Shown here piece after piece: positions 1,405-27,401 of a DNA stretch of 32,000 nt (positions are counted from its first letter, which is position 1; each line of letters opens with the position of its first letter). Under the pieces are notes generated by a model. The model saw only the letters and a list, made by a program, of their open reading frames with translations. It ran no database searches and had not been told where the DNA came from. Source of the DNA: Geotalea daltonii FRC-32 (GTDB lineage: Bacteria; Desulfobacterota; Desulfuromonadia; Geobacterales; Geobacteraceae). Position numbers and translations under genes: made by a program. The stretch lies in assembly GCF_000022265.1 (NCBI RefSeq), contig NC_011979.1, positions 4,200,001 through 4,232,000 of the forward strand. The letters run 5' to 3'.

Positions 1405-1406
1405 GG

Positions 1407-2075: not shown

Positions 2076-2078
2076 CGG

Positions 2079-2240
2079 CTATCGCTCCCCTTTCCGTGCA
2101 AGAATATCGAGCACCCGCTCCACGCACTCATTCACAACCGACTGTTTATCTTCGGTCGATGAGGGGGGAGCGGCGCTCCCCCCTGAAGCATCGTTGGTTA
2201 CCTCTACGGAAATGACAACTTCATCGACTATGATCGGCAT
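2079..2240 (-). CDS. DUF5908-like small eCIS protein (Afp6/Pvc6-like), 53 aa
   Basis: I take the internal ATG at 2240 of track ORF 2079..2351. It lies 1 nt after the upstream tube gene stop. The N-terminus MPIIVDEVVISVEV matches the MPIEIxELxIKxxV-type start of DUF5908 proteins as I recall them. The position (tube, small protein, LysM protein) is the canonical one. Confidence 0.6.
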   Translation of the reverse strand: MPIIVDEVVISVEVTNDASGGSAAPPSSTEDKQSVVNECVERVLDILARKGER

Positions 2241-5122: not shown

Positions 5123-5132
5123 AGTCGGTTCC

Positions 5133-6146
5133 TCATCCTTTCGATATGTGGATGACGATCTTCCCGTCCGGCTTGTCGGCCGCAGGTAGCGGCAGCGACT
5201 TGATGAGCGTTTCGTCATTCCTGAGCAACTGCATTTTTCTCGTTCCTGCTTCAGCCCTAGGTATCGGTTTTTCCGATCTGAACAGGGCAACCCTCGCCTC
5301 CATGCCGCCGAGCCCCTTGTACCCTGGTGGCATTTCTTCGGGTCGTACCCTTTCGAAAGATGTCTTCGAATCTCCGTTGTTGCCGTTACCCTGCGCTTTC
5401 TCCTCGACCTTCACCTGATCCAGCTCTTCTTCCGAGTATCCCTTCGCCACCACGTAATATTCGAGGAACTCTTCCTTCCTCTCGAACGGGATGTTCAGCT
5501 GTATGGGGGCATCTTTGGACTGGTAAAAAGAGTCGTCTATCGCCACTTCGACGATTGCGAGCCCACCAGCCTGCAGCATCTCGGCATCACGGTAATACCA
5601 GGTCGTTGTTTCCGAGCCGGGAGCACCTTCATCAACCATAAAATGACGACCGGAATAGCCGTTCAATGTGAACCGGGCCTCGCGAAACTCCGCATTTGCA
5701 GCCATCTCTTCAGCCAGAATATGGCCGCTATCATCCCGCAAAACCAAGCTCAAAGGCCGGACCTCGCTTACAACCGAATGGGAAAGAAGGTCCCTGGTGA
5801 CTGTTACCTCCCTTGCACTCTCGAATCTCTCCGGGAGGGAACCGTTCCGGTAGTAGAGGACCCGCTTGGGGGAAACATTGACATTTGTGAAATTCATGAA
5901 ATACGGGTTGAGCAACACGAGCCGAAATCTCACCGTCGCGCCTGCCAGGGAGAAAAGAGGGTTGTTTCCGGCGTCCACCTCGTGAAGGAAGTACAGGACA
6001 CCATTTTTCACCCTGGAGAGCACCCTCGCGTTCCGCAGGAGCTCCCGTGTATCTCCAAGCAGTACAAAGTCGATGTCGTTGCAGCTCTTTAAGTAGTAAC
6101 CATGAGAGATCGCTACCGTGAAAAGAGTTCTGAAGGTAGTGATCAT
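5133..6146 (-). CDS. hypothetical protein, unassigned eCIS-operon component (337 aa)
   Basis: Long ORF translationally coupled on both sides: an ATGA overlap with the DUF4255 gene at 6143-6146, and an end 10 nt before the sheath start. It has no signal peptide, no TM segment and no motif I recognise. Confidence 0.7.
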   Translation of the reverse strand: MITTFRTLFTVAISHGYYLKSCNDIDFVLLGDTRELLRNARVLSRVKNGVLYFLHEVDAGNNPLFSLAGATVRFRLVLLNPYFMNFTNVNVSPKRVLYYRNGSLPERFESAREVTVTRDLLSHSVVSEVRPLSLVLRDDSGHILAEEMAANAEFREARFTLNGYSGRHFMVDEGAPGSETTTWYYRDAEMLQAGGLAIVEVAIDDSFYQSKDAPIQLNIPFERKEEFLEYYVVAKGYSEEELDQVKVEEKAQGNGNNGDSKTSFERVRPEEMPPGYKGLGGMEARVALFRSEKPIPRAEAGTRKMQLLRNDETLIKSLPLPAADKPDGKIVIHISKG

Positions 6147-6712
6147 TGACTGTTCGTATCTCCCTGTATTTTCGTAACAGGAGGCTTCACGGTTTTTACC
6201 GCCCCATCCTGAATCGTTATCATCCTGACCTTATACAGGACAGAAGGAAGCTGTTTGGCGCCGATGAAACCCCATATCTGGTTGAGCTGCTCGTAGGAGG
6301 GAGATTGCAGCTCTACGCTCAGCTTCGCTATCTGTCTGTCAAGGGCAGGGTATTGTTCGGAAGTAAATGAAGGACGGGACTGAAAAAAGGAGATTATGTG
6401 GGAAATGGCTTTTAAAGCGACATCATAAACAGTGTAATTCGCGGCAAACAGGAGATAGATATTCAACTTCAGTTCCGGCTCCAGAACTACATGCTGATCA
6501 CCTACCAGCCTGTGTTCCAGAGTCTGAGACTTTAGCACTCGCTCCTCTTCAATATTGATAATGCTGAGGCCAATCGTATCGCTGTCAATGGCATACTCAC
6601 CCTTCCCATTGACTACAGGTCCCAGCTTGACCTTGGTAAAGCCTGTGCGGTCACTGGTTAGACTGTACGCGTTGATCTCGTCCGAGAGAAACTGAAGGGC
6701 AACATCGAGCAC
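6143..6712 (-). CDS. DUF4255 (Pvc16_N) domain protein, eCIS tail terminator/cap (Afp16-like)
   Basis: 189 aa. GTG start at 6712 preceded by GGAGG at 6-nt spacing. The N-terminus LDVALQFLSDEIN and the overall size fit DUF4255 proteins that open many eCIS operons; this assignment is from memory. Confidence 0.7.
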   Translation of the reverse strand: MLDVALQFLSDEINAYSLTSDRTGFTKVKLGPVVNGKGEYAIDSDTIGLSIINIEEERVLKSQTLEHRLVGDQHVVLEPELKLNIYLLFAANYTVYDVALKAISHIISFFQSRPSFTSEQYPALDRQIAKLSVELQSPSYEQLNQIWGFIGAKQLPSVLYKVRMITIQDGAVKTVKPPVTKIQGDTNSQ

Positions 6713-6895: not shown

Positions 6896-8023
6896 TTATT
6901 GCCTCGATACCCGCAAAAGCCGTGACAGCGCTCTCCACAGCTTAATAGTGTCGCTAATACGTGGTTTTAAATTGACATGCATCAGGCCCTGGACCAGATA
7001 AAGGCTTCCCTGGCCGCGAGAGATATTCTCGGCAAGGGCGACGCTCTCCGTATAGGGAATGATATCATCATCATAGCCGTGAAGGATGATCATCTGCGCC
7101 TTCAGGCGGCCCATATCGTAACCGGCGATATTCAGCCGTGTGATCTCCTGGCGGATGGAGAGCGGCAACCGACCGATGAGGGCCGTCACCCTGGTCCGGT
7201 CCCTGTTCTCGATGAAATTGAAGAAATTTCGCCCCTCAGGTGACAGCCCATCTGCCAAGTCGCCAACGGCGGCACCCGGATCATCAAGCTTTCTGGCAGC
7301 CATCCTGGCAAAGAGTTGGCGATCTGTGGCCAAACTGAGCCGCCTGATGTTGCTCAGGACAAATACCCATTTGCCATAGTGATTGGGTTCCCGGTACTGC
7401 CATGTACCCTCCTTCTGAAAATAGCCGGTGGTAAAGAAGGTGAGCACCCGGACCAGGTCGTAATAACCGCCGATGGTCATGATGAATCGTACCCGTTGGG
7501 CAATGAGAGGATCGAGTGCCGCGAGTACGGCCGGTCCGCAGGCATAGCTGATGCCACAAAGACCGGCACGCCCGTTTGGCGCCAAATCCTGCTGCGTGGC
7601 CAGCCAATAAAAACACCGCGTCACATCTTCAGTGTCCCTGGAACCGATCTGCAGCGAACGGAATCCCTGCAGGTCCGGCACCAGCACGGCAAAACGTGCA
7701 CGGGCCATGCTCATGGCCAAAGCCTGCAGTCGCGGGTCGTCCTTGCCTTTCTCCGCAGCCCCCGGAAGCAGCAACATCGCCGCCAGCGGCTTTTGACCGG
7801 CAAGGTACAGGTCGGCATGATAACGTACTCCTTTTACTTGAAAATTCCTTGCCAAACGCCGTGGCTCGGCTGCATCCCCACTTGGGGCTTCCTTTGCTCC
7901 GGCAGCAATATCCACCAATAGTTTTGCCGCCTCGTAATCTCTTACCGGATTACAGCCGGTCAGAGCCATGGCCATGACAATGATGGGCAATATATGCCCG
8001 ATGCTGACAGGTCTTGAATTCAT
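6896..8023 (-). CDS. lipoprotein, alpha/beta-hydrolase fold
   Basis: Signal peptide with lipobox (MAMALTGC). Candidate Ser/Asp/His triad: a nucleophile-elbow-like CGISYACG, Asp in ILHGYDDDIIPY, and a late His in LVQGLMHVN. Confidence 0.75.
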   Translation of the reverse strand: MNSRPVSIGHILPIIVMAMALTGCNPVRDYEAAKLLVDIAAGAKEAPSGDAAEPRRLARNFQVKGVRYHADLYLAGQKPLAAMLLLPGAAEKGKDDPRLQALAMSMARARFAVLVPDLQGFRSLQIGSRDTEDVTRCFYWLATQQDLAPNGRAGLCGISYACGPAVLAALDPLIAQRVRFIMTIGGYYDLVRVLTFFTTGYFQKEGTWQYREPNHYGKWVFVLSNIRRLSLATDRQLFARMAARKLDDPGAAVGDLADGLSPEGRNFFNFIENRDRTRVTALIGRLPLSIRQEITRLNIAGYDMGRLKAQMIILHGYDDDIIPYTESVALAENISRGQGSLYLVQGLMHVNLKPRISDTIKLWRALSRLLRVSRQ

Positions 8024-14072: not shown

Positions 14073-17000
14073 TTACTTCTGTTGCTCTTTTCCGAACTTC
14101 AGATAGAGCGAGGGCAGTACCACCATATTCAGCACGGTCGAACTGAGCAGCCCCCCCAGAATTACGATGGCCAGCGGCGAAAGGATCTCGTTGCCCGGTT
14201 TGTCGGCGGCAATGGCAAATGGCACCAGTGCCAGACCGGCTGCCAGTGCGGTCATTATGACCGGTCTGAGACGCTCCATAGAGCCCTGCAGCACTGCTTC
14301 TTGCAAGGTTTTCCCATCTTGTTCCATCAGGTGTTTGTAGTGGGAAATCAGCAGAATGCCATTTCGTGTCGCTATGCCGAACAGGGTGATAAATCCCACC
14401 AGCGAAGCGACGCTAATGACCCTTGAGGTGAAATAGACGGCTATTATGCCGCCGATAAAGGCAAGCGGCAGGTTGACCATGACCAGGAATGCATCTCTGA
14501 AACAACGAAATTCAATATAGAGGATCAGGATTATGAAGAGCAGCGAAACGATACTCAGCAGGCCGATTGTCCTGGTTGCCTCTGCCTCGCTCTCAAACTG
14601 TCCGCCATACTCCACGTAGTACCCCTCCGGGAGCTTGACCTTCTGCTCGATGTTGCTGCGGACATCTTCGAAAACACTGCGCAGATCACGTCCTGCCACG
14701 TTTGCCTGAACGACGATCTTGCGTTGAGCATTCTCTCTGGTGATGGTATTCGGCCCCTTGGCGGAAACGACCCGAGCTACGGTGGACAGGGGAATCTTGA
14801 CCCCGGTCGGGGTGTCGATCATGACGTTTTCGATGGAACCGGTACTATCGCGAGCCGCATCTGGAAACTTCACCACTACGTCGAACCCTCGATCTCCTTC
14901 CAGGGTACGGGTCACGGCCATGCCGGCGGTGGCAGCCTCCATTGCCTCCGCAACACCAGACATGGTGAGATCATACCGAGCCATCTGGGCACGGTCCGGA
15001 ATGATCCTGACCTGGGGAATGTCCTTCTGCTGTTCAACCGACAGATCCGCCAGGCCCGTGACATCGGCAATGGCGCCCCTGATCTCTTCCGCTGTAATCC
15101 GCAACCGGTACAGCTCGGGACCATAGACCTTAATGGCGAGGTTAGCCATGGTGCCGGACAACATGTGGTCGATCCGGTGGCCGATAGGTTGGCCGAAGGT
15201 AATGGTAGCGGGCATTCCGGCCATTGACTTACGCACTTCCGCCATGACATCGCCAAGTTTGCGGTCCTTCATATCGAGCTTGGCCTCGATCTCCGTCATG
15301 CTCGCCGCCTTGCCGTGCTCATCCATATCACCCCGACCTGTTCTGCGGGCCGTTTTCTTGATGTTAGGGTGTGCCAGCAGCTTTTTTTCCACCTCCAGAG
15401 CAATGGCCGCCGACTGTTCCAATGAGGTTCCTGCCGACGTAACGATAACCACCGTCAGCGCCCCTTCGTTAAATGCGGGGAGAAAGGAGCGGCCTGTCAT
15501 GGACAAAGGAATCATTGCCAAGACAAAGGCCGCCACTGATCCTGCAATCACGAGTTTCGGCCGGCTGATTGCCAGGTTGAGCATGGGGCGATAGAGGCGC
15601 TGCAACCAGCGAACTGCGGCACTTTCTTCCTCCCGCTCCAGGCATTTGGCCCGTGGCAACAGGTAGGAGCAGAGGGCCGGGGTAACCGTCAGGGCGACAA
15701 TCAGCGATGCGCCGATTGAAACCATGTAGGATATTCCGAGCGGCCGCAACAGCCGGCCCTCAACGCCCGTGAGAAAGAAGAGGGGCATGAATACCATAAG
15801 AATGATCATGGTCGCATTGACAATGGATGCACGGATCTCCTTCGATGCCTCGAAAATCACCATGCGCGACGGGGATCTTGTGCTTTCCGGTTTCAGGCGA
15901 TTTTCCTGCAAACGTCGAAAAACGTTTTCCACATCGATGATGGCATCGTCGACAATGACCCCGATGGCGATGGCCATTCCCCCAAGAGTCATGGTGTTAA
16001 TGGAGATGTCGAAAATCCGCAGGGCAAAGATGGCAAACAGCAGCGACAGCGGCATGGCGGTAATAGAAATGAGGGTGGTCCGCACATTGCCCAGAAAAAG
16101 GAAAAGGATGACGATGACCAGCAGCGCCCCCTCGGTCAGAACCTTCTTGATGTTGTCTATGGCCCGCTCGATGAAATCTGACTGGCGAAATATATCGGTT
16201 TCCAGCTTCATACCGGCAGGCAGACTTTTCTGCAACTCAGCGAGTTTCCCTTCCAGGCGCTTGGTCAGTTCAAGAGTATTTGCGGTAGGATGCTTCTGAA
16301 TCGAGATCACCACTCCGGGTTTGCCGTTGGCCGAGGCGTCCCCATACCTGAAAGCCGGGCCAATGGCAACCCGCGCCACATCCCTGACCAGAACCGGCAC
16401 ACCGCCCCTGGCAGTCACTACAACCTGCTCCAGATCGGCTGTGGTGCGGACTCTGCCCACGCCACGAATCATGTATTCCTGGCCGGTCTTCTTCATAACA
16501 CCGGCGGCAAAGTTTTCATTAGCTCCTTTGAGCGCCGTGATTACTTGCCCCACCGTGACGCCGAAGGCTTGCAGACGTTGCGGATCAAGTACGGCCTGAT
16601 ACTGGCGGGTGTCACCGCCGATATTGGAAACCTGCGAGACCCCCGGTACCGCCAGAAGTCGCTTGCGGATAACGAAGTCGGCGGTTTCTTTCAATTCCAT
16701 GGTGTTATGCTTGTCGCTGACAAGGGCCACGTGCATGATCTCCCCCATGATCGAGGAGATCGGGGCCAGTTGGGGGATCGCATCAGCAGGCAGAACACCG
16801 GCCAATGATTGCAGCTTTTCATTGACCACCTGGCGCGCCTTGTATATATCAGTTCCCCAGGTGAACTCGACCCAGACGGTGGAGAGACCGGCTACCGTAT
16901 AGGAACGGACCCGGCGCACGCCGCTGGAGCCGTTGACAGCACTTTCAATCGGATAGGTGACAACCGACTCCACCTCTTCCGTAGCCATGCCATGGGCCTC

Positions 17001-17153
17001 GGTGATGATGGTAACCGTCGGCGCGGTCAGATCCGGCAGGACATCCACCGGCATCTTCATGGTTATATAAGTCCCGACCAGCAGCACCAGCAGTGACGCC
17101 ACAACGACGATCAGCCGGTTCTCCAGGGCCAGGCGGATTACTTTATCGAGCAT
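14073..17153 (-). CDS. heavy-metal efflux RND pump (CusA/CzcA, HME family), 1026 aa
   Basis: I take the ATG at 17153 (GAGGAG RBS) inside track ORF 14073..17246. The N-terminus is MLDKVIRLALENRLIVVV...DVLPDLTAPTV. The TM4 motif is AIGVIVDDAIIDVENV. That is AIG-x3-DDA-x3-VEN, neither CzcA-type DFG-x3-DGA-x3-VEN nor E. coli CusA-type AVG-x3-DAA-x3-IEN (both as I recall them). Confidence 0.95.
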   Translation of the reverse strand: MLDKVIRLALENRLIVVVASLLVLLVGTYITMKMPVDVLPDLTAPTVTIITEAHGMATEEVESVVTYPIESAVNGSSGVRRVRSYTVAGLSTVWVEFTWGTDIYKARQVVNEKLQSLAGVLPADAIPQLAPISSIMGEIMHVALVSDKHNTMELKETADFVIRKRLLAVPGVSQVSNIGGDTRQYQAVLDPQRLQAFGVTVGQVITALKGANENFAAGVMKKTGQEYMIRGVGRVRTTADLEQVVVTARGGVPVLVRDVARVAIGPAFRYGDASANGKPGVVISIQKHPTANTLELTKRLEGKLAELQKSLPAGMKLETDIFRQSDFIERAIDNIKKVLTEGALLVIVILFLFLGNVRTTLISITAMPLSLLFAIFALRIFDISINTMTLGGMAIAIGVIVDDAIIDVENVFRRLQENRLKPESTRSPSRMVIFEASKEIRASIVNATMIILMVFMPLFFLTGVEGRLLRPLGISYMVSIGASLIVALTVTPALCSYLLPRAKCLEREEESAAVRWLQRLYRPMLNLAISRPKLVIAGSVAAFVLAMIPLSMTGRSFLPAFNEGALTVVIVTSAGTSLEQSAAIALEVEKKLLAHPNIKKTARRTGRGDMDEHGKAASMTEIEAKLDMKDRKLGDVMAEVRKSMAGMPATITFGQPIGHRIDHMLSGTMANLAIKVYGPELYRLRITAEEIRGAIADVTGLADLSVEQQKDIPQVRIIPDRAQMARYDLTMSGVAEAMEAATAGMAVTRTLEGDRGFDVVVKFPDAARDSTGSIENVMIDTPTGVKIPLSTVARVVSAKGPNTITRENAQRKIVVQANVAGRDLRSVFEDVRSNIEQKVKLPEGYYVEYGGQFESEAEATRTIGLLSIVSLLFIILILYIEFRCFRDAFLVMVNLPLAFIGGIIAVYFTSRVISVASLVGFITLFGIATRNGILLISHYKHLMEQDGKTLQEAVLQGSMERLRPVIMTALAAGLALVPFAIAADKPGNEILSPLAIVILGGLLSSTVLNMVVLPSLYLKFGKEQQK

Positions 17154-17319
17154 GTAATTCTCCTCGTATGTTAGTTTTTTCCAAGAAACGAGATTTTTTT
17201 GTCCTGGCAAGGCTGTCGAGGGTTGACGCGGAGGCGTAGTACCCAAAGGGCATAAACAGCGCTACGCCGCACAAGGAAACCCGAAGACTTACGCAGCCAG
17301 GGCGGAAAAGGCTCGTTTC

Positions 17320-18852
17320 TTAGTGGGCATGGCCCTGGTCTGCGCCCCCCTTGGCGGCGGACTCGGCTTGTTTGACGTAATAGGCGCCACGGGTCACTAC
17401 CCGCTCATCACCCTTGAGACCTGAGGTGATCTGGACAAAACCGCCATCTTCGACGCCGACCTTTACCTCCCGTCGATCAAAAGCCTCCCCCGATGGCTGG
17501 ATAAAGACGAACCAACGGGCCTCGTCTTCAATCAGGGCATCCTTGGGCACGGCCAGTGCGCCGGCAACCGAGCCGGTCCGAATGGCAACATTGGCGAACA
17601 GCCCGACCTTGAGGCGTCCTGATTTATTGGGCACTTCAAACAGTACAGGCAGGGTTCTGGTCTGGGGATCGAGCATATCGCCGACCGACACCAGCCGCGA
17701 CGGTTTGAATTCATCAGTCAAGCCGGCAACGGTGAAAGTCGCATTGAGCGACTTGCCGGCTGTGGCGATCTCGGTCGCAGGAAGATTGGCTTTGAGCCAG
17801 AGGGTGCCGGTATTGACAATACGCAGGATTGGTTGTCCCGCCTCAACCCCTTTGCCGGCCCCGGCAGTCACCTCGACCACCGTGCCGCTCACCGGTGCAC
17901 GCACCGCAATCCGACCACTTCCTTCTCCCTTGACACTTCCCATGGATTTTTCAAGAGGCTCAAGAGCCGACTTCGCACTGGAAAGTGCCAGCTCCGCTTC
18001 CTCTACTCGTTTCAGCGGGGCTATTTTAGCGTCATGGAGTCGCTTGGCCCGGTCGTACTCCTTTTGCGCAAGTGCAACCCGATTTTTTGCTTCGGCATAG
18101 GCCGCTCCCAGCTGACCGATGCCGCCATCCGGCCTGATCGGGGGATCAATCATGGCCACCACTTCACCTTTTGCCACCTTCTTCCCGATGAAAGGCAGTT
18201 GCTTGACAGTTGAGATGGTACCAGCCAAAGGAGCGGCAACCGTTGCTTCAGCGTTCGAGACCGGAACCAGCTCCCCGGTCGTGGTAACGAAGCTGCCCAG
18301 ATCTTTCTTGACCGGCTGGGTTACCATGAAATCCACGACCCACTGTTGTTCCTTCAAATACGCAATTGCTCCCTCACCACCTGCATGTCCTTCTGCCGGT
18401 TTCGCACCCTTGTTCGATACCTGTACTTCAGATACCGTGATTTCGTCGGCGAATCCCTTCCCGTCAGTGATCAGTTTGAGCGAATAGTTCCCAGGATTGG
18501 CAAGGGTCGCCTCAGCCTTGTAAATACCGGCACGGGTCGGGGCCGGCATGGTGAAGATGACCGGTTCACCGGCAGATGGAGTGAATACCATTTTCAGCCC
18601 CCCCTCCGTTACCGGCTTGAAATCGGCAAGTCTGGTGAGATGAATCAGAAAACCCGCCTTTTCTCCTGCCACCGGCGGATCATATTCCATAAAAAGTTCG
18701 CTCTTTGCGGAATAGGCGGTTACCTTGATTGGTTCGGCTTCGCCTCCGGCAGCAGCGGCGGGTGCATGTTCCTTGTGATTACAGCCTGACAGTGTGAACA
18801 GCAGAACCAGTAGTATACCCATGTATTTCATGGCAGTTTTGTAGATGCTCAT
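17320..18852 (-). CDS. RND periplasmic adaptor (MFP, CusB/CzcB-like) lipoprotein with an extra N-terminal domain of about 150 aa
   Basis: Lipobox LFTLSGC. The HlyD/MFP core is TTTGELVPVSNAEATVAAPLAGTIS...RAPVSGTVVEV...LWLKANL. There is an ATGA overlap with the OMF gene at 18849-18852 and a His-containing C-terminus, GGADQGHAH. Confidence 0.9.
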   Translation of the reverse strand: MSIYKTAMKYMGILLVLLFTLSGCNHKEHAPAAAAGGEAEPIKVTAYSAKSELFMEYDPPVAGEKAGFLIHLTRLADFKPVTEGGLKMVFTPSAGEPVIFTMPAPTRAGIYKAEATLANPGNYSLKLITDGKGFADEITVSEVQVSNKGAKPAEGHAGGEGAIAYLKEQQWVVDFMVTQPVKKDLGSFVTTTGELVPVSNAEATVAAPLAGTISTVKQLPFIGKKVAKGEVVAMIDPPIRPDGGIGQLGAAYAEAKNRVALAQKEYDRAKRLHDAKIAPLKRVEEAELALSSAKSALEPLEKSMGSVKGEGSGRIAVRAPVSGTVVEVTAGAGKGVEAGQPILRIVNTGTLWLKANLPATEIATAGKSLNATFTVAGLTDEFKPSRLVSVGDMLDPQTRTLPVLFEVPNKSGRLKVGLFANVAIRTGSVAGALAVPKDALIEDEARWFVFIQPSGEAFDRREVKVGVEDGGFVQITSGLKGDERVVTRGAYYVKQAESAAKGGADQGHAH

Positions 18853-20138
18853 TTATTTCCTCCGTCCACTTTCTGTAATTCGACTCCCACCGCGGCCTCC
18901 AGTTTTGCGACCGCAGTGTTCCAGCTGTAGAGTGCTGTCAGATAGCCGTCAGTTACTTCGATAAATTTCTTCTGTTCTTCGATCACTGCAAGAATCCCTA
19001 CTTCACCAAGACGATACGCCTCCTGGACCAGTTTCAGGTTCTCAGAGAGTTGTGGGATAATTTCCCCGGCATAGATATTCAGTGATTTTTCCGCAGAGGC
19101 GAGCCGCGCGTGAGCAGCTTCTACCTCCCTCTCAATGCCTTGCCGGACAAACGCTTGACGTGTTTCAGCGCTGCTTTTTCTGGCCTGGGCTTCTCTTATA
19201 CCAGCCTGGTTTCGGTCAAAAAACTGAAGGGGGAAAGAAAACTTCAGGCCGATCAGATAGTCTGTATCTCGCTCTTGAAGGCCTCCCAAGGAAGTCTCCG
19301 ACCTTTCCCAGCTGAAACCGATTCCAGCCCTCACATTCGGCACCAGTTCGGCCTGAGCCAGGGAGAGTTCAGCTTCACCTTTGTTCTTTTCCGCTTCAGC
19401 AGCTCCCAGGTCAGGGCGATTTTTCAGGGCCATAGCCTTTAATTCTGCAGGATTTTCAGTGGACGGCTTCGTCTGCGGTTTGCCGGTAATCTTCAAGCCC
19501 GTCAAGGCAGGCGTCCCCATGAGCGAGAGTAGTCGCTGCCGGGCCGGCACGAGTTCGCGCTCCGCCTCGATTTTTCGTCCTTCACTGCGGGCGGTTTCGA
19601 CCCTGGCCAGGTTTACGTCCAGTTCCGCAACATCACCGGCGGCCAGCCGTTCTTTGGCAATCTGCAACAATTCGTTGTTCAGTTCCTGGGACTTTTGTGC
19701 CAGCTCAAGACGGCTTTCCACTAGAAGAAGACTGTAGAACCCGGTCTTCACCTCCAGCAGCAGCAGACGTTCCGCATCCTTGATCCGGTTCCCGAACCGT
19801 ACAAGTTCGGAGTCAGCCACGGCCAGCCGCTTTTCCCGTTTACCACCGAGTAAGAATTCCTGGGATACGCCGATGCCCAGACGGTTTTCGGACGAACTGC
19901 CGGTAAGGGCACCGGTGACGCCTTCCAGATCCAAAACAGGATTGGGATAGAGGCCTGCCTTGATTTTGCCTGCGTCGCCGATTCCCAGCTCTTGGCGGAG
20001 CGCTTTCAGTTCCCCGTTGTGCTCCCTGGCAATGGTAATGATTTCCTGTAGATTAATGGCATTTTCCTCTGCCCGAAGTGGTGCCGTTGTTGCACAAATT
20101 ACTGCCGCCATTGCGACGACAGATGTTAGTCGCTTCAT
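18849..20138 (-). CDS. outer-membrane efflux factor (TolC/CzcC/CusC family)
   Basis: Signal peptide MKRLTSVVAMAAVICATTAPLRA|EE, then TolC-type repeats (ELKALRQELG...GLYPNP...LDL). The start could instead be the ATG at 20165. The track start at 20333 is unlikely. Confidence 0.85.
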   Translation of the reverse strand: MKRLTSVVAMAAVICATTAPLRAEENAINLQEIITIAREHNGELKALRQELGIGDAGKIKAGLYPNPVLDLEGVTGALTGSSSENRLGIGVSQEFLLGGKREKRLAVADSELVRFGNRIKDAERLLLLEVKTGFYSLLLVESRLELAQKSQELNNELLQIAKERLAAGDVAELDVNLARVETARSEGRKIEAERELVPARQRLLSLMGTPALTGLKITGKPQTKPSTENPAELKAMALKNRPDLGAAEAEKNKGEAELSLAQAELVPNVRAGIGFSWERSETSLGGLQERDTDYLIGLKFSFPLQFFDRNQAGIREAQARKSSAETRQAFVRQGIEREVEAAHARLASAEKSLNIYAGEIIPQLSENLKLVQEAYRLGEVGILAVIEEQKKFIEVTDGYLTALYSWNTAVAKLEAAVGVELQKVDGGNK

Positions 20139-20445
20139 TACGTTCTGTTTCAATTGTTCCTCCATGATTGCGCTGAGGTGTGACTTGTCCTGAATCCAAC
20201 CACGTAACTGTGCCAATATCCCATCATTGAAGACGCCGCCAGGGCAGAAAAGAACCCTTTCCGGATGGAAACAAGGTAATACGCATGCAGAAATGCCTTT
20301 GTAATTCCGGCAATAAGCCTGGCCCAATGACACAATTACGGGGGATTAAGTTGTAGTATTTTGAGATAATTATGGACTGGACGACTGGACGCAGAACGAC
20401 TCAGCAAGAGTGTCGTTTTAGACGCATGTGTAGCGTGTCAGCCCT

Positions 20446-22208: not shown

Positions 22209-22486
22209 CCAGGAAGGCCTCTAATCCTCGGGCTTACTGCCGTAAAAATCCACCTCAAGGTCATAGGCACCCCTCTTTCGTTCAAGGGAAGCAAGTTCGC
22301 GGGACCGACTGCCCAATAATTTTCAACAGCCCGCCAATCTGCAACAAACCTTCTGCAGCATCAATTCCCACAAATCTGCAGCTTATATCCCTTCTGAATT
22401 AAACCACGTTTTATTCTCAAGATTCCCGTGGCGCCGCCGATAACTCTCTACAAATACTTAAAATGGCTGCGGCTCTGCGAGGAATT

Positions 22487-24574
22487 ATGCCCAAGAAAAA
22501 GCTCCTGCACAAAATTCTCGGAATTATCGGTCTTACCCTTTTCGTCGGCTTTGCCGCCATGGGCATGCTGGCCCTATGGCTTGAGTACTCAGCCACCATG
22601 GACCTGCAGATGAAAAACAGCCGCAACATGGCGGCGTTCATTATCCACAATATCGACGAGTACATGATGAAGGGTGAATCCAAGGCTGTGGAGGCCTTCC
22701 TTACCAAAATAAAAGATAAAAAATTCGCCCTTGATATGCGAATCTTCAATGGCGACGGTAAAGCGCCGGAACAATTGGAAGGACCAGCCAATAAGGATGT
22801 TGTTGCTGCCTTGGCCAGTGGCAAAACGCTGGAGCTGAAGCAGAAGGAAAATGGCATTCACACCCTTAGATCTGTGGTTCCCGTGCCCAATGAAGAACGG
22901 TGCAAGCAGTGCCATGATGCGGAACCCAAATTCCTGGGGGCCATCGTCCTCACCACCTCCCTTCAAGAAGGGTTCAACAGCGCCCTCAAGCTTACCTGGA
23001 TGCTGACTGCTGCCGGCATATTTTTCTTCCTGGCCATGCTCATCACCCTCTATTTATTCTTCAAAAAGACGGTCATCAAAGATCTTATGGAATTCGCCGA
23101 TAAACTGCGGATCATTGCCCGCGGCGAGGGGGACCTGACCAAGGAGATATCCATCCGCTCCCGGGATGAAATCGGCTCACTGGCAGAGGAGATCAACCAT
23201 CTGATCTCGAAACTGCGGGATATTATCGCTTCCCTTTATGTACAGGCAGGGAATATTTCCGTCTCCATCTGCATGGTCTCCAGGGATACTATAGGCACCG
23301 AGGCAGCTTCAAGCGCCCAGAAAGAGCAGGCCATGTCAGTTGCCGTGGCCACAGAAGAGATGGCGGCCACTCTTAATGTGGTCGCCGGTAATACCCATCG
23401 GGCGGCAGAGCTTTCAGCCCAGGTCGATGCCGCGGCAAGCGACGGAATGACCGTGGTCGATGAAGCATGCAGCAGCATCAGGATGGTCAACGAAAATGTG
23501 ACGGCGACCCTTGGAACGGTTATGAAACTGGAAACTTCGTCGAAGAAAATTGGCGAGATTATCGTGCTCATTGAGGACATAGCAGACCAGACCAACCTGC
23601 TTGCACTCAATGCTGCCATAGAGGCGGCACGTGCCGGAGAGCACGGCAGGGGATTTGCCGTGGTCGCCGATGAGGTGAAGAATCTGTCGGCAAAGACTGC
23701 TGCTTCCACCAAGGAAATTGCCAAGATCATCGCCGATATCCAGAGCGAAAGCCGGGATGCCGCCGCCTCGATCATGGAGGAAAAACAGCGGGTCGAGGAA
23801 GGGGTGGACAAATCGCTGGCAGCGAAGAATTGCCTGGAAAAAATCCTCCTCTCCGCCTCCGAATCGTCGGACATGATCAACCAGATAGCGTCGGCCACGG
23901 AAGAACAGAGTGCAACGGTCAATGAGATCGCCTCCAGCATCCACAATGTGTCGTCCTCGGCTGCCGAGGTTTACGGGCAGATGCAAAAAAGCAGGGCAGC
24001 ATTTAACGAGCTCACCGAGGTGGCGGAAAATATTTTTACCACCGTGGGCAAATTCAACGTTGGAAACCATCACGACGCCATGAAGGGTTATGCCTGTCGG
24101 TTGCGGGATGAGGCGGTGGCAGCACTGGAAAAGGCTATCGCCGAAAACAGGCTTTCCATTTCAGATCTTTTCGATCGTAATTACAAGCTGATCCCCGGCA
24201 CCTCTCCCCAGAAGTTTACCACCCGCTTCGACAGTTTTTTCGATCAGGTCATCTCCCCGATCCAGGAACGACTGCTGGCAGATAGCGAGGATATCAACTT
24301 TGCCATTTGTGTCGATGATCATGGCTATTGCCCGACCCATAATCTGCGCTACACCAAGCCACTCACCGGCAATCCGGAGACAGACAAGACCGCCAACCGG
24401 ACCAAGAGAATCTTTGACGACCGCACCGGCATCAGGGGAGCACAGAACACGGAGCCCTTCATCCTGCAGACTTACATGCGGGATACCGGGGAGATCATGA
24501 ACGACATGTCGGCCCCCATCATCATCGACAACAGGCACTGGGGTGCGGTACGAATCGGCTACCAAGCCAGATAA
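22487..24574 (+). CDS. methyl-accepting chemotaxis protein with a CXXCH periplasmic sensor domain and an extra C-terminal domain
   Basis: Two TM helices. The periplasmic domain contains CKQCH (22901-22915). A HAMP domain follows, then the MCP hairpin [31 protein letters not shown], then about 165 further residues. The start is ATG 22487 (GAGG upstream) or ATG 22463. Confidence 0.93.
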
Positions 24575-24615: not shown

Positions 24616-25983
24616 TTAAAGGATGATCTGGTGCAGGTCGCGCTGCTTGTACCTCCAGGCAAAGGCGGTTGCGCGGAACAGCCAGTCCAGGAGAAAGACC
24701 CCCCAGACCATATAAAGGGAAAGGTGGAGCGGAACGGCGGCTATGTACGATAAGAGGACCCTGATCCCCCACATGGCAATGAGAGTGACGAGGAAGACGT
24801 AGTGGGTATCGCCGGTACCGCGCAGGCTGCCGGCGTAGACGAAAGAAATGGCGAGCGGCACCTGGGCGAAGGCTACCAGACGGAGAAAGACACAGCCCTT
24901 CTCTATTACTTCCGGGTCGTTGGTAAAGAGGCCGATGAGCAGATGGGGCATGAAAAAGAACAGGGCGGCCATGAAGGCCATGACAATAATGGCCAGGCGC
25001 AGAGCTTCATTATGGCTGATCCGTGCCCTGCTGATCTTGCGGGCGCCCAGTGCCTGCCCCATCAGTGTCGATGCGGCGATACCCATCCCCGCCCCCGGCA
25101 TGAAGGAGAGCGATTCGATGGAAAGGCCGATCTGGTGGGCAGCATAGGCGGCGGTGCCGTAACTGATGATGAACTTGGAATAGAAAAGTTGTCCAGACTG
25201 CTGGGCAATCCTCTCCAGCGCCACCGGGTAGCCCACCTGCCAAACCCTGCGGAACAGGGGAAGATCCGGCCTGCCGATCTTGATGTAGTTCTTGCGCAAG
25301 GCCTGGACCAGAAGGTAGAGAAAACCGCATAGCTCAGAGATGTTGATGGCGTAAGCAGCGCCTGTTACTCCCAGCTGCGGAAAGCCGAATTTACCATAAA
25401 CCAGCGGATAGGCAATGAGGACATGGAGGATGTTGACGAGGATGATACCCTCCATGGGGGTCCTGGTGTTGCCGGTGCCGTGCATGATAGCGGAAAGGAT
25501 ATTCAACCCGGCGGTGAAGGCGAAGTAGAGAAAGACCAGCTTTACATAGCCGGAGGCAAAGTTCAGGACATCTTCCCTGGCCCCGAGGAATCTGGCCAGT
25601 TCCTCGCCGAAATACCAGCCGAGGAACGAGGCGATGATCGCCATGCCGGCACAGGCGAGGCAGGCGGCAAAGGCAGCCCGCCTGGCCTCGGCACGGCGGC
25701 CTCCCCCCCACAAATGGGCGATTACCACGGTGGTGCCGGTGGCGAGCCCCCAGAAGACGGTCATGACAACGAAGATCAGCAGCTGGCCGAGCCCGGTTGC
25801 GGCAATGGCGGCAGCCCCCAGCCCGCCGACGATGAAGATATCCACAATGGAGACCAGACGCTGGAAGAGGGAGGAAAGAAGCACCGGCAGGGAAAGATTC
25901 AGGACGTTGCGGCGGATGGATACCCGTTTGGTCGGTCTCTTCTTGAACAGCTGCTCGGTAAAAACGGCAAAATTCGGCGACAA
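24616..25983 (-). CDS. MATE-family efflux transporter
   Basis: 455 aa, 12-TM type, with LSLPVLLSSLFQRLVSIVDIFIVGGLG and a second-half repeat. The TTG start at 25983 directly abuts the TAA of the upstream gene, with GGAG 6 nt upstream. Confidence 0.9.
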   Translation of the reverse strand: MSPNFAVFTEQLFKKRPTKRVSIRRNVLNLSLPVLLSSLFQRLVSIVDIFIVGGLGAAAIAATGLGQLLIFVVMTVFWGLATGTTVVIAHLWGGGRRAEARRAAFAACLACAGMAIIASFLGWYFGEELARFLGAREDVLNFASGYVKLVFLYFAFTAGLNILSAIMHGTGNTRTPMEGIILVNILHVLIAYPLVYGKFGFPQLGVTGAAYAINISELCGFLYLLVQALRKNYIKIGRPDLPLFRRVWQVGYPVALERIAQQSGQLFYSKFIISYGTAAYAAHQIGLSIESLSFMPGAGMGIAASTLMGQALGARKISRARISHNEALRLAIIVMAFMAALFFFMPHLLIGLFTNDPEVIEKGCVFLRLVAFAQVPLAISFVYAGSLRGTGDTHYVFLVTLIAMWGIRVLLSYIAAVPLHLSLYMVWGVFLLDWLFRATAFAWRYKQRDLHQIIL

Positions 25984-26235
25984 TTACAGCTCCAGTTCCT
26001 CCGCCATGGACATGGCAAAATTCTTCGCCCGCCCGGAGGGGGCGATGATACCATAGGCAATGGCTTCTTTCAGTTCAGCCCGTGTTGCTCCTGCTTCCTT
26101 CGCGACCGCGAAATGTTTCTTCAATCAAGTCTGGCACCCCACCGCCACCGCACAGCCGATGCGGATCAGCTCGCGGGTCTTCACATCGAGCACCTCTTCG
26201 AACTCATAGTCAAGAATCTTCTTTCTGATGTTCAT
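25984..26235 (-). CDS. AhpD-like / carboxymuconolactone-decarboxylase-family selenoprotein (83 aa, Sec at codon 37)
   Basis: Hand translation gives MNIRKKILDYEFEEVLDVKTRELIRIGCAVAVGCQT-U-LKKHFAVAKEAGATRAELKEAIAYGIIAPSGRAKNFAMSMAEELEL*. The in-frame TGA at 26127..26125 falls where the second Cys of the family's C-x-x-C-x3-H redox motif sits. There is an AAGGGGG RBS. Both halves are under 60 aa, so the gene is absent from the track. Confidence 0.75.
26098..26113 (-). ncRNA. candidate bacterial SECIS stem-loop
   Basis: UUUCGC-GGUC-GCGAAG begins 11 nt after the UGA. The stem is 5 bp plus one G-U pair, and the apical loop is GGUC. Confidence 0.45.
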
Positions 26236-26270
26236 GGAACCCCCTTTCCTGTTGGTAATGGCTGGCCGGA

Positions 26271-27401
26271 TCAACCGGCACCGATACAGAGAGCGGCATA
26301 GATCCTGGCGGCGGCCGTAACCTCGTCGAACAGCACCTGTTCATCCGAGGTGTGGGCGGTCTCCAGGGCACCGGGGCCGAGGATGAGCGGTTTGGTGCCT
26401 GCGGCAAAAAAGAGGTTGCCGTCGGAATGGGAACGAAAAGCATCCAGGCGCAATTTCAAGCCGAGTTCAGGGTAAATGTTTTCCAGCGTTTTCCCAAGGT
26501 GGCTGTTCATGTCCAGGGCATAACCGGCCGAGGCAAAATCAAAGGTAACATCCAGGTCAAGCCCTGGAATTGCCAGCTCTGCACCTGCGGCAATGCGACG
26601 GATCGCCTCCTGAACCACCACCGGGTTCTGGGCAGGCGGAAGATGCAGGTCGATCCAGGTCTCGCAACGGTCCGGCACGACAAAGCCGGCACGTGAGGAG
26701 CTCATTTCTCGGATTGAATATACGATATCCGATCGGGCGCGGTCGAAAATGGGATCTCTTCCCAGGTGCATCAGAACGCGCAGCATGGATTCCACCGCAT
26801 TGTGCCCCAGCTCCGGCAGAGAGGAATGGCTGCGCACGCCACGGGTGACAAAGCCCGCCTCCATATACCCGTAATGGGCAAAGCAGGCGATAAGGCCTGT
26901 CGGCTCGCCGATCACTGCCCATGGTGGATGGTAGCTTTCCAGAAAGGCGGCGCTGCCGTCTCCATTCTCCTCCTCGCCCACCGCCAGGAGCAGCCCGACG
27001 GGCGGGCGCTCCTCAGGTTTCAGGGCAGCGGCCATGGCCAGCCATGCCTCGATCATGGCGGCGCAGCCCCCCTTCATGTCGGCGCTCCCCAGGCCGTAAA
27101 TTACCCTGCCCTCTTCTCTGGCGCCAAAGTCCTCCAGATCCCAGGCCGGCACCGTATCCACATGGGCCACCAGGTAGAGTTGAGGTTCACCGGTTCCCAT
27201 GGTGAGACAGAGGTTGTAACGATCCTCGTCAACCTCCTGGCGTCGGACGGCAAAACCGGCCGTGGAGAAAAGCCCTTCCAGATAAAGCTGGATGTCTTCT
27301 TCCTTGCCGGATGGGGAATAGATATTCAACATCTCGATGAAGGTCCGGCGCAGCCGCCCCGGGTCAATAGCCTGCCATACTCGCTGAATGCGGTCGGTCA
27401 T
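26271..27401 (-). CDS. M20-family metallopeptidase / deacylase (ArgE/DapE-like)
   Basis: I take the ATG at 27401 (ATGA overlap with the GNAT gene stop). Motifs: LVAHVDTVP...GLGSADMKGG...GEEENGDGSA...GEPT...HSSLPELGHNA...HTSDEQV. Confidence 0.9.
   Translation of the reverse strand: MTDRIQRVWQAIDPGRLRRTFIEMLNIYSPSGKEEDIQLYLEGLFSTAGFAVRRQEVDEDRYNLCLTMGTGEPQLYLVAHVDTVPAWDLEDFGAREEGRVIYGLGSADMKGGCAAMIEAWLAMAAALKPEERPPVGLLLAVGEEENGDGSAAFLESYHPPWAVIGEPTGLIACFAHYGYMEAGFVTRGVRSHSSLPELGHNAVESMLRVLMHLGRDPIFDRARSDIVYSIREMSSSRAGFVVPDRCETWIDLHLPPAQNPVVVQEAIRRIAAGAELAIPGLDLDVTFDFASAGYALDMNSHLGKTLENIYPELGLKLRLDAFRSHSDGNLFFAAGTKPLILGPGALETAHTSDEQVLFDEVTAAARIYAALCIGAG

What the first reader, a model, noticed from the sequence alone, without database searches (positions are those of the whole stretch)
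25984..26235. Hidden AhpD-like selenoprotein gene with in-frame UGA and a SECIS-like hairpin at canonical spacing
The 285-bp apparent gap between the M20 and MATE genes is filled by an 83-codon frame with an RBS (AAGGGGG) and an ATG at 26235. Its TAA stop directly abuts the MATE start codon. The frame is interrupted only by a TGA at 26127..26125.

The TGA lies in GCQT-U-LKKH. This corresponds to the C-x-x-C-x3-H redox motif of carboxymuconolactone-decarboxylase/AhpD-family proteins, with Sec replacing the second Cys (C-x-x-U).

Eleven nt after the UGA is a stem-loop, UUUCGC-GGUC-GCGAAG. Both the spacing and the GGUC apical loop resemble the minimal E. coli fdhF SECIS as I recall it. AhpD-like selenoproteins have been predicted in deltaproteobacteria and marine metagenomes but are routinely missed by gene callers.
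Basis: partly seen in the sequence, partly recalled or inferred. Interest (0 to 1): 0.7.

Follow-up and report, generated by a model that had tools for sequence, protein, structure and literature searches.

The report
Known small AhpD-type selenoprotein gene
The apparent gap between two genes holds a real 83-codon gene whose single in-frame UGA most likely encodes selenocysteine in a redox motif, but it belongs to a selenoprotein family described about twenty years ago and already covered by a curated annotation model.

Summary
Minus-strand frame 26235..25984 has an RBS, an ATG, 83 codons, one in-frame TGA (26127..26125) and a TAA abutting the first possible MATE start.

With U read as C, the protein matches NCBIfam NF041047, "GSU3128 family (seleno)protein", over its full length (148 bits, cutoff 110), and Pfam CMD. 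This is the "distant AhpD homolog" CxxU selenoprotein of Geobacter.

In 80 orthologous loci from Geobacterales/Desulfuromonadales plus the window, the codon is TGA in 81 of 81. Purifying selection is the same on both sides of it.

Codons 41-46 (CAC UUC GCG GUC GCG AAG) show almost no synonymous change: third-position divergence is 0.05, against 0.50-0.55 elsewhere. They form a 6-bp stem with a GGUC loop, 11 nt after the UGA. That is the spacing and loop of the E. coli fdhF SECIS.

Sec occupies the second Cys of the AhpD relay E-x11-C-x2-C-x3-H.

Three things are not shown. Sec-machinery genes could not be checked in this genome. The hairpin alone is not beyond chance in one sequence. There is no biochemical evidence.

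The parts
25984..26235 (-). Coding sequence of an 83-residue selenoprotein: MNIRKKILDYEFEEVLDVKTRELIRIGCAVAVGCQTULKKHFAVAKEAGATRAELKEAIAYGIIAPSGRAKNFAMSMAEELEL. It belongs to the GSU3128 / 'distant AhpD homolog' family.
   Evidence: Translation. NF041047 at 148 bits against a cutoff of 110, profile positions 1-83 of 84. Pfam CMD at 56.3 bits against a cutoff of 23. 80 orthologues.
26240..26250 (-). Ribosome-binding site AGGAAAGGGGG, 4 nt before the ATG.
   Evidence: Read directly from the sequence. 77 of 81 orthologues start with ATG at the aligned position.
26125..26127 (-). UGA codon 37, the predicted selenocysteine codon. It is the second position of the C34-x-x-U37 motif.
   Evidence: TGA in 81 of 81 orthologues. 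The column holds Cys in 122 of 197 CMD homologues. Database 'full-length' homologues that show W here are TGA in the DNA.
26098..26113 (-). SECIS-type hairpin UUUCGC-GGUC-GCGAAG: a 6-bp stem and a 4-nt loop, 11 nt after the UGA. It lies within codons 41-46 (HFAVAK).
   Evidence: Fold results. All 486 cells are paired across 81 sequences, with one compensatory change. Synonymous variation nearly vanishes at codons 41-46. Spacing and loop match the verified fdhF SECIS.
26170..26172 (-). Glu22 codon. It sits 12 residues before Cys34, the spacing of Glu118-Cys130 in the AhpD proton relay.
   Evidence: Invariant in 81 of 81. Relay residues are taken from PMC3141380.
26134..26136 (-). Cys34 codon, the first position of the C-x-x-U motif.
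   Evidence: Invariant in 81 of 81. Cys in 182 of 197 homologous domains.
26113..26115 (-). His41 codon, the +4 His of C-x-x-U-x3-H. Its third base is the first base of the hairpin stem. The window has CAU where 80 relatives have CAC.
26271..27401 (-). Upstream neighbour: an M20 ArgE/DapE-family deacylase. It ends in a TGA that is used as a stop. The likely start is the ATG at 27401.
   Evidence: NCBIfam and ORF data. This neighbour is present in only 3 of 80 related loci.
24616..25983 (-). Downstream neighbour: a MATE efflux transporter. Its first possible start, a TTG, abuts the selenoprotein's TAA.
   Evidence: TIGR00797 at 271.7 bits. A MATE gene lies downstream on the same strand in 29 of 80 related loci.

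Best explanation
This is a functional selenoprotein gene of the GSU3128 / 'distant AhpD homolog' family, in a Geotalea species close to G. toluenoxydans. It was missed only because ORF callers stop at UGA.

During translation, the 16-nt hairpin that begins 11 nt after UGA37 is bound by SelB carrying Sec-tRNA(Sec) and GTP. That delivers selenocysteine to the ribosome at the UGA, so the full 83-residue protein is made.

The protein is a small all-helical CMD/AhpD-fold domain with an N-terminal beta-hairpin. It carries the complete AhpD-type proton relay: Glu22-x11-Cys34-x2-Sec37-x3-His41. Sec takes the place of the second Cys.

The protein most likely acts as a selenol/thiol-based peroxidase or a reductase of disulfides and mixed disulfides, cycling through a Cys34-Sec37 selenenylsulfide.

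What is shown: the gene, the family membership, conservation of the UGA, the RNA-level constraint on the hairpin, the fold and the motif.

What is inferred: Sec insertion by SelB, the redox chemistry, the oligomeric state and the physiological substrate.
For: 1. Family. NF041047 equivalog model: E 6e-44, 148 bits against a cutoff of 110, full length. Pfam CMD. [quoted passage not shown] Zhang 2006 lists this selenoprotein in G. sulfurreducens and G. uraniumreducens.

2. UGA conservation. TGA in 81 of 81 loci, with no other stop in the first 75 codons.

3. Translation continues past the UGA. Divergence at codon positions 1+2 is 0.127 upstream and 0.123 downstream. At position 3 it is 0.50 and 0.55. 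Amino-acid identity is 82% upstream and 84% downstream.

4. RNA constraint. Codons 41-46 have third-position divergence of 0.051. They are the lowest of 63 six-codon windows, with normalised synonymous entropy of 0.06 against a median of 0.76.

5. Structure. RNAalifold predicts only this hairpin. All cells are paired. In L028 the U-A pair became C-G, together with F->L and K->R changes in the protein.

6. SECIS model (criteria from PMC13188914). The loop is 4 nt, the stem is 6 bp, the first loop bases are GG, and 17 nt separate the UGA from the loop. fdhF, verified in E. coli genomes, has the same 11-nt spacer and GGUC loop.

7. No code reassignment. 11 of 20 large ORFs in the window end in TGA, including the gene 35 nt upstream.

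8. Active site. The Sec column is Cys in 122 of 197 homologous domains, with Cys at -3 in 182 and His at +4 in 178. E22, C34 and H41 are invariant, and their spacing matches Glu118/Cys130/Cys133/His137 of M. tuberculosis AhpD.

9. Fold. An AlphaFold2 model of the 83%-identical homologue P0003 has pLDDT 95. Its Foldseek hits with probability 0.9 or more are all CMD/AhpD structures.

10. Sec machinery in relatives. It is reported for Geobacter sp. FRC-32, G. uraniumreducens and G. sulfurreducens (PMC1914089; PMC1794560).
Against: - No selA, selB, selC or selD was found in the 32-kb window: there is no tRNA, no Rfam hit and no sel family hit. The rest of the genome could not be searched.
- The window's hairpin alone folds at only -5.7 kcal/mol, because of a U.G base pair. 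That is weaker than the -7.5 threshold of the bSECIS model, and the local fold is no better than shuffles.
- A hairpin like this after a TGA is expected about 1.7 times per window by chance.
- Covariation support is thin, at one compensatory event, because the stem hardly varies.
- I found no biochemical or proteomic evidence for any member of this family.
Confidence: 0.93

Rival explanations
1. The frame is a pseudogene, or two unrelated small ORFs of 49 and 46 codons as annotated in one G. toluenoxydans assembly. On this reading the UGA simply terminates translation.
For: Public annotation splits the orthologue into two hypothetical proteins, GAB7025134 and GAB7025133. The ORF listing gives the same two halves.
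Against: The two halves together form one CMD domain, and the motif spans the TGA. TGA is conserved in 81 of 81 loci with no other lesion, and purifying selection is equal on both sides. A pseudogene would accumulate scattered stops and would lose the position-3 versus position-1+2 contrast.
Confidence: 0.02
2. UGA37 is read through, but not as selenocysteine. It could be decoded by a near-cognate tRNA as Trp or Cys, or read through at low level. On this reading the conserved hairpin acts as a generic read-through or pausing stimulator, not as a SelB site.
For: No direct evidence for Sec exists here, and the sel genes are unverified for this genome. The hairpin is short and lacks the bulged U of fdhF.
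Against: The column is a catalytic Cys in homologues, which is the classical Cys/Sec pair. Spacing and loop match the SECIS model and fdhF. Relatives have Sec machinery and other selenoproteins. Trp at a CxxC nucleophile position would inactivate the motif.
Confidence: 0.04
3. The palindrome has nothing to do with decoding. It is either a by-product of the conserved peptide HFAVAK or an intrinsic terminator for the + strand.
For: The terminator scan flags the same palindrome on the + strand, at 26099..26112 with tail ATGTTTCTTC. The amino acids HFAVAK are themselves conserved.
Against: Synonymous codon choice is frozen here, which amino-acid conservation cannot explain. Ala, Val, Lys and Phe codons elsewhere in the same 81 sequences show 0.7-1.9 bits of entropy, against 0-0.38 here. 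When the peptide does change (L028: HLAVAR), the pairing is kept. No + strand gene ends nearby, and the T-run is weak and lies inside a minus-strand coding region.
Confidence: 0.01

Closest known systems
GSU3128 family (seleno)protein, NCBIfam NF041047. This is the 'distant AhpD homolog' selenoprotein of Geobacter, cited through PMC13188914 and PMC1794560.
   Same: Full-length match above the curated cutoff. The same CxxU motif. The same roughly 83-residue length. The same taxonomic group (Geobacterales/Desulfuromonadales). The same hairpin after the UGA.
   Different: Nothing essential. The window's copy has Gln35 where 79 of 81 have Pro. It also has CAU instead of CAC at codon 41, which makes the stem base a U.G pair. 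The M20-selenoprotein-MATE arrangement is specific to the Geotalea subgroup.
Escherichia coli fdhF SECIS
   Same: 11 nt between the UGA and the upper stem, and a GGUC apical loop. The 46-nt fdhF SECIS sequence was verified in fdhF of 5419 E. coli genomes.
   Different: fdhF has a bulged U in the upper stem and a long lower helix reaching back to the UGA. Here there is no bulge, and RNAalifold finds no conserved lower helix.
Mycobacterium tuberculosis AhpD and small hexameric CMD proteins (PDB 3bey, 7y4r, 5dik, 1vke, 1p8c, 2af7)
   Same: The CMD fold. The Glu-x11-Cys-x2-Cys-x3-His relay with identical spacings.
   Different: Sec replaces the second Cys. The protein is shorter (83 aa) and is predicted to have an N-terminal beta-hairpin in place of the first helices. 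It scores far below the cutoffs of the AhpD models proper: TIGR00777 gives 14.4 bits against 192.
Marine 'AhpD-like' (COG2128/TIGR01926) and 'CMD-like' CxxU selenoproteins of the Sargasso Sea and GOS data sets
   Same: The same superfamily and the same CxxU placement of Sec.
   Different: These are different families. TIGR01926 scores 12.9 bits against a cutoff of 81.8. The reviews list them as separate entries.

Membership tests
GSU3128 family (seleno)protein, NF041047 ('distant AhpD homolog') | Whole-protein score above the curated cutoff of the equivalog model, over the full length. | tested here: met
   148 bits against a cutoff of 110; E 6.1e-44; residues 1-82 on profile positions 1-83 of 84.
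GSU3128 family (seleno)protein, NF041047 ('distant AhpD homolog') | CxxU motif, with the U encoded by an in-frame UGA at the conserved column. | tested here: met
   C34-Q-T-UGA37. TGA in 81 of 81 orthologous loci. The motif is listed as CxxU in PMC13188914.
GSU3128 family (seleno)protein, NF041047 ('distant AhpD homolog') | Occurrence in Geobacter and relatives that decode Sec. | tested here: met
   The window is 96.9% identical in DNA to Geotalea toluenoxydans JCM 15764. All 80 loci come from Geobacterales/Desulfuromonadales. The literature lists G. sulfurreducens and G. uraniumreducens.
Pfam CMD (PF02627) / AhpD-fold superfamily | Domain score above the gathering threshold. | tested here: met
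   56.3 bits against 23.
Pfam CMD (PF02627) / AhpD-fold superfamily | All-helical CMD fold. | tested here: met
   An AlphaFold2 model of the 83%-identical P0003 has pLDDT 95 and pTM 0.83. All Foldseek hits with probability 0.9 or more are CMD/AhpD structures, with TM 0.54-0.73. The model is of a homologue, not of the window protein itself.
Pfam CMD (PF02627) / AhpD-fold superfamily | AhpD proton relay Glu-x11-Cys-x2-Cys-x3-His. | tested here: met
   E22, C34, U37 and H41 have the spacings of Glu118, Cys130, Cys133 and His137. Sec replaces the second Cys.
Pfam CMD (PF02627) / AhpD-fold superfamily | Peroxidase or disulfide-reductase activity. | not testable with these tools
   This needs enzymology.
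AhpD proper (TIGR00777) and marine AhpD-like selenoproteins (TIGR01926/COG2128) | Score above the model cutoffs. | tested here: not met
   TIGR00777 gives 14.4 bits against 191.95. TIGR01926 gives 12.9 bits against 81.8.
Bacterial SECIS (bSECIS model, PMC13188914 Fig. 2) | Apical loop of 3-9 nt and upper stem of 4-16 bp. | tested here: met
   A 4-nt loop and a 6-bp stem.
Bacterial SECIS (bSECIS model, PMC13188914 Fig. 2) | [quoted passage not shown] | tested here: met
   The window's loop is GGUC. 80 of the 81 loops have G among the first two positions; the variants are GGGC, GGCC, GGCU, AGGU and CGUG.
Bacterial SECIS (bSECIS model, PMC13188914 Fig. 2) | 16-37 nt between the UGA and the apical loop. 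| tested here: met
   17 nt: an 11-nt spacer plus the 6-nt stem arm.
Bacterial SECIS (bSECIS model, PMC13188914 Fig. 2) | Minimum free energy of -7.5 kcal/mol or lower. | tested here: inconclusive
   The window's hairpin alone gives -5.7. The 46-nt stretch gives -6.5, the 60-nt stretch -9.1 and the 66-nt stretch -11.7. The family consensus hairpin gives -8.7. The result depends on the stretch folded.
Bacterial SECIS (bSECIS model, PMC13188914 Fig. 2) | Evolutionary constraint on the RNA, and binding by SelB. | tested here: met
   The constraint is met: third-position divergence is 0.051 against 0.50-0.55 elsewhere, pairing is 100%, and there is one compensatory change. SelB binding itself is not testable here.
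Sec-decoding trait of the host genome | selA, selB, selC (tRNA-Sec) and selD present. | not testable with these tools
   None is in the 32-kb window. The literature reports the machinery in close relatives.

The most novel reading that the evidence does not exclude
The 16-nt hairpin (6 bp plus a GGUC loop, with no bulged U and no conserved lower helix) may be the entire SECIS of this family. It would then be a natural counterpart of the engineered minimal fdhF SECIS at the same 11-nt spacing, kept almost base-for-base identical across an order-level clade. That would imply a SelB recognition mode in Geobacterales that does not need the bulged U.

A second, weaker possibility is functional coupling of the selenoprotein to the MATE exporter that follows it in 29 of 80 loci.
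Probability: 0.35. Interest if true: 0.3.

Novelty: already known. Interest (0 to 1): 0.15.

Why it matters
The finding is mainly a correction to annotation. Standard ORF callers split or drop this gene: one public G. toluenoxydans annotation has two 'hypothetical proteins' in its place. Metagenome pipelines have stored full-length versions with a spurious Trp at the Sec position.

For biology, it adds one more member to a small family of selenoproteins that has never been characterised experimentally. That family has a complete AhpD-type active site and is widespread in metal-reducing Geobacterales.

The comparative data assembled here give a clean, nearly invariant mini-SECIS that could be used for experiments. 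This does not open a new question.

Tried and rejected
- Rfam gathering scan and ARAGORN on the window found nothing: no SECIS family, no tRNA-Sec.
- A literature search for 'GSU3128' gave 0 papers. The family was found under the name 'distant AhpD homolog' instead.
- I looked for Cys-containing close homologues. The 12 'full-length' database proteins carry W at the Sec column, and two of them (P0007, P0012) were confirmed in the DNA as TGA translated with another code. One true Cys form, P0041 (CPTC), came only from the exhaustive representative search.
- I searched for a conserved lower helix or a longer SECIS. RNAalifold on 84-nt and 45-nt alignments returns only the 6-bp hairpin.
- I tested for a conserved operon partner. 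MATE follows in 29 of 80 loci and M20 precedes in 3 of 80. Another clade has GlnE upstream with DUF116 and fmt downstream. There is no family-wide partner.
- tRNA scans of 60 related loci looked for a linked selC. Only one tRNA-Ser(CGA) turned up.
- I tried to identify the exact source genome through exact protein look-ups. Only unnamed Logan/ENA contigs carry the window's N-terminal half.
The homologue P0003 was modelled instead.
- The + strand terminator reading of the palindrome was rejected.

Full report
**Observation**

The minus strand between the M20 deacylase gene (stop TGA at 26273..26271) and the MATE transporter ORF (first possible start TTG at 25983) carries one frame. It runs from the ATG at 26235 to the TAA at 25986..25984.

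The frame translates to MNIRKKILDYEFEEVLDVKTRELIRIGCAVAVGCQT*LKKHFAVAKEAGATRAELKEAIAYGIIAPSGRAKNFAMSMAEELEL. The only interruption is the TGA at 26127..26125, which is codon 37. AGGAAAGGGGG lies 4 nt before the ATG.

Eleven nucleotides after the TGA, the RNA UUUCGC-GGUC-GCGAAG (26113..26098) folds as a 6-bp stem with a 4-nt loop.

**What a single sequence can and cannot show**

The hairpin by itself is weak evidence. The 66-nt and 46-nt stretches do not fold better than shuffles. The window's hairpin alone is worth only -5.7 kcal/mol.

A TGA followed at 11 nt by such a hairpin occurs twice in the window, against 1.67 expected in simulated sequence. The window contains no tRNA gene and no Rfam match. 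None of its larger ORFs is a sel gene.

**Identity of the protein**

With U replaced by C, the 83-residue product matches Pfam CMD (E 3e-15, 56 bits against 23). It also matches NCBIfam NF041047, "GSU3128 family (seleno)protein". That is an equivalog model. The match is end to end, with E 6e-44 and 148 bits against a curated cutoff of 110.

The models for AhpD proper (TIGR00777) and for the marine AhpD-like/peroxidase-related family (TIGR01926) are far below their cutoffs.

The closest solved structures by sequence are small CMD proteins: 3bey, 7y4r and 5dik. Their CxxC aligns with C-Q-T-U.

An AlphaFold2 model of the 83%-identical homologue P0003 is confident, with pLDDT 95. Its Foldseek hits with probability 0.9 or more are all CMD/AhpD structures.

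**The family is already described**

[quoted passage not shown] By my recollection, reference 12 is the 2004 survey "The prokaryotic selenoproteome"; I did not check this in the paper's reference list.

Zhang et al. 2006 list "distant AhpD homolog" among the selenoproteins of Geobacter sulfurreducens and G. uraniumreducens (PMC1794560).

An independent 2005 read-through method lists, as its first G. sulfurreducens selenoprotein prediction, a match to a Methanosarcina carboxymuconolactone decarboxylase. This is probably the same gene (PMC1242214).

**Comparative test of recoding**

A scan of one genome per species found 197 relatives and returned the best 80. All are from Geobacterales/Desulfuromonadales. 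The window is 96.9% identical in DNA to Geotalea toluenoxydans JCM 15764 over 4.6 kb.

In all 80 loci and the window, codon 37 is TGA. No sequence has another stop in the first 75 codons.

Selection is the same on both sides of the TGA:

| Measure | Upstream of TGA | Downstream of TGA |
|---|---|---|
| Divergence at codon positions 1+2 | 0.127 | 0.123 |
| Divergence at codon position 3 | 0.50 | 0.55 |
| Mean pairwise amino-acid identity | 82% | 84% |

This pattern excludes a pseudogene and shows that translation continues through the UGA.

TGA is not reassigned in this genome. It ends 11 of the 20 large ORFs in the window, including the M20 gene 35 nt upstream.

**A database artefact**

The 12 "full-length" homologues in the protein collection all show W at this column. 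For the two I checked in the DNA (P0007, P0012), the codon is TGA. The W is therefore an artefact of translation with another code.

All other close database entries are halves that stop or start at the TGA. One G. toluenoxydans annotation has two adjacent hypothetical proteins in place of the gene.

**The hairpin is under RNA-level selection**

Across the 81 sequences, codons 41-46 (CAC UUC GCG GUC GCG AAG, HFAVAK) show almost no synonymous variation. Codon entropy there is 0-0.38 bits. Other Ala, Val, Lys and Phe columns of the same alignment have 0.7-1.9 bits.

Third-position divergence in these six codons is 0.051. They are the lowest of all 63 six-codon windows (0.06 against a median of 0.76).

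RNAalifold predicts exactly this hairpin and nothing else, so there is no conserved lower helix. All 486 base-pair cells are standard pairs. One locus (L028) changed U-A to C-G, with accompanying F->L and K->R changes in the protein. Two others have G.U wobbles.

Loop variants are GGUC (the majority), GGGC, GGCC, GGCU, AGGU and CGUG. The window is the only sequence with CAU at codon 41. That gives a U.G pair at the base of the stem and the weakest hairpin of the set.

**Comparison with the SECIS definition**

The published bSECIS model requires a 3-9 nt loop, a 4-16 bp stem, a G in the first two loop positions, 16-37 nt between the UGA and the loop, and an MFE of -7.5 kcal/mol or lower (PMC13188914).

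The first four criteria are met: a 4-nt loop, a 6-bp stem, GG, and 17 nt. The energy criterion depends on the stretch folded. It is -5.7 for the window's bare hairpin, -9.1 to -11.7 for longer stretches, and -8.7 for the family consensus hairpin.

The 46-nt fdhF SECIS sequence is present in fdhF of 5419 of 5426 E. coli genomes. It reads UGA + 11 nt + GGUUGCA-GGUC-UGCACC. The spacer and loop are the same as here. fdhF additionally has a bulged U and a long lower helix.

**Active site and likely mechanism**

In an HMM alignment of the homologous CMD domains that span the column (from the searches):

- the Sec column is Cys in 122 of 197, and 19 more show W as in the TGA-derived entries above;
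- position -3 is Cys in 182;
- position +4 is His in 178.

P0041 is a Cys form (CPTC) of a near relative.

E22, C34 and H41 are invariant in the 81 orthologues. Their spacing equals that of Glu118, Cys130, Cys133 and His137, the proton relay of M. tuberculosis AhpD (PMC3141380).

Sec thus sits at the position of the second Cys. From my own knowledge of AhpD biochemistry, that Cys is the more reactive nucleophile.

The inferred mechanism has two parts. SelB recognises the hairpin and inserts Sec at UGA37. The protein then cycles between selenol/thiol and a Cys34-Sec37 selenenylsulfide, acting as a peroxidase or a disulfide reductase. By analogy with the six-chain crystal entries of its closest structural relatives, it is probably an oligomer. 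None of these biochemical steps is shown.

**Context**

GNAT, M20, the selenoprotein and MATE are tightly packed on the minus strand, with no convincing promoter or terminator between them.

MATE follows the selenoprotein gene in 29 of 80 related loci. M20 precedes it in only 3. Another clade has GlnE upstream, with DUF116 and fmt downstream. No partner is conserved across the family.

**What remains open**

Sec machinery could not be checked in this genome. The literature reports it in Geobacter sp. FRC-32, G. uraniumreducens and G. sulfurreducens (PMC1914089; PMC1794560). I found no experimental evidence for any member of the family.

**Verdict**

It is a member of a known, curated selenoprotein family, so novelty is "already known" and interest is low (0.15).

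The only mildly novel angle is that the family's SECIS appears to be a nearly invariant 16-nt mini-hairpin without a bulge or a lower helix.

Noticed in passing
window 3185..6712 (minus strand): ORFs with phage tail sheath domains (PF04984, PF17482) and a Pvc16 N-terminal domain (PF14065). This suggests part of a contractile injection system or phage-tail-like cluster. Several neighbouring ORFs (10..2162, 5133..6146, 6896..8023) have no family match.
   Followed up: no
protein collection entries P0001-P0012; loci L081:1501-1755 and L083:756-1010: Database 'full-length' homologues carry Trp at the Sec position. In the two checked (P0007 in L081, P0012 in L083) the DNA has TGA, so the gene callers translated these contigs with a code that reads TGA as Trp. 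Such entries can mislead Cys/Sec column checks.
   Followed up: yes
L028:3088-3171: This is the only orthologue in which the peptide over the hairpin changes (HFAVAK to HLAVAR). The two amino-acid changes are exactly those that turn the U-A pair into C-G, with a C-G to U.G change alongside. The protein sequence seems to follow the RNA structure.
   Followed up: partly
P0041 (from the representative library): A 92-residue near relative has Cys instead of Sec (CPTC). It lacks the +4 His and the HFAVAK stretch that encodes the hairpin (it reads CLRNGVTGAK). This would be the Cys form expected from the '(seleno)protein' family name. Its DNA could not be fetched.
   Followed up: partly
L004 (Geotalea toluenoxydans JCM 15764, NZ_BBCJ01000016.1), about codon 74 of the orthologue: The reading frame shifts near the C-terminus (…AKNFACPWRRNW…). 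Another assembly of the same species encodes the intact C-terminus (P0013). This is probably an indel error in the draft assembly rather than a real lesion.
   Followed up: partly
window 26271..27401 (minus strand): The M20 deacylase next to the selenoprotein gene has sub-threshold similarity to the 'YgeY family selenium metabolism-linked hydrolase' models: 105.6 bits against a cutoff of 321. This is probably just general M20 similarity. The adjacency is seen in only 3 of 80 loci.
   Followed up: partly
window 26099..26112 (+ strand): The terminator scan reports the SECIS palindrome as a terminator-like site on the opposite strand. This is an expected false positive for a perfect palindrome.
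   Followed up: yes
window 14073..20333 (minus strand): A complete CusA/CzcA-type heavy-metal RND efflux operon: permease, CzcB-like adaptor and TolC-like outer-membrane protein.
   Followed up: no
window 22463..24574 (+ strand): A 703-residue methyl-accepting chemotaxis protein. Its roughly 150 C-terminal residues beyond the signalling domain are not covered by the MCP models.
   Followed up: no
L001-L080, flanks of the orthologues: Two main genomic contexts appear for the family. In one, a MATE transporter lies downstream (29 loci). In the other, glnE ends 4 nt into or just before the gene, with DUF116 and fmt convergent downstream (about 20 loci). This suggests the small gene has moved between contexts without any fixed partner.
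   Followed up: partly
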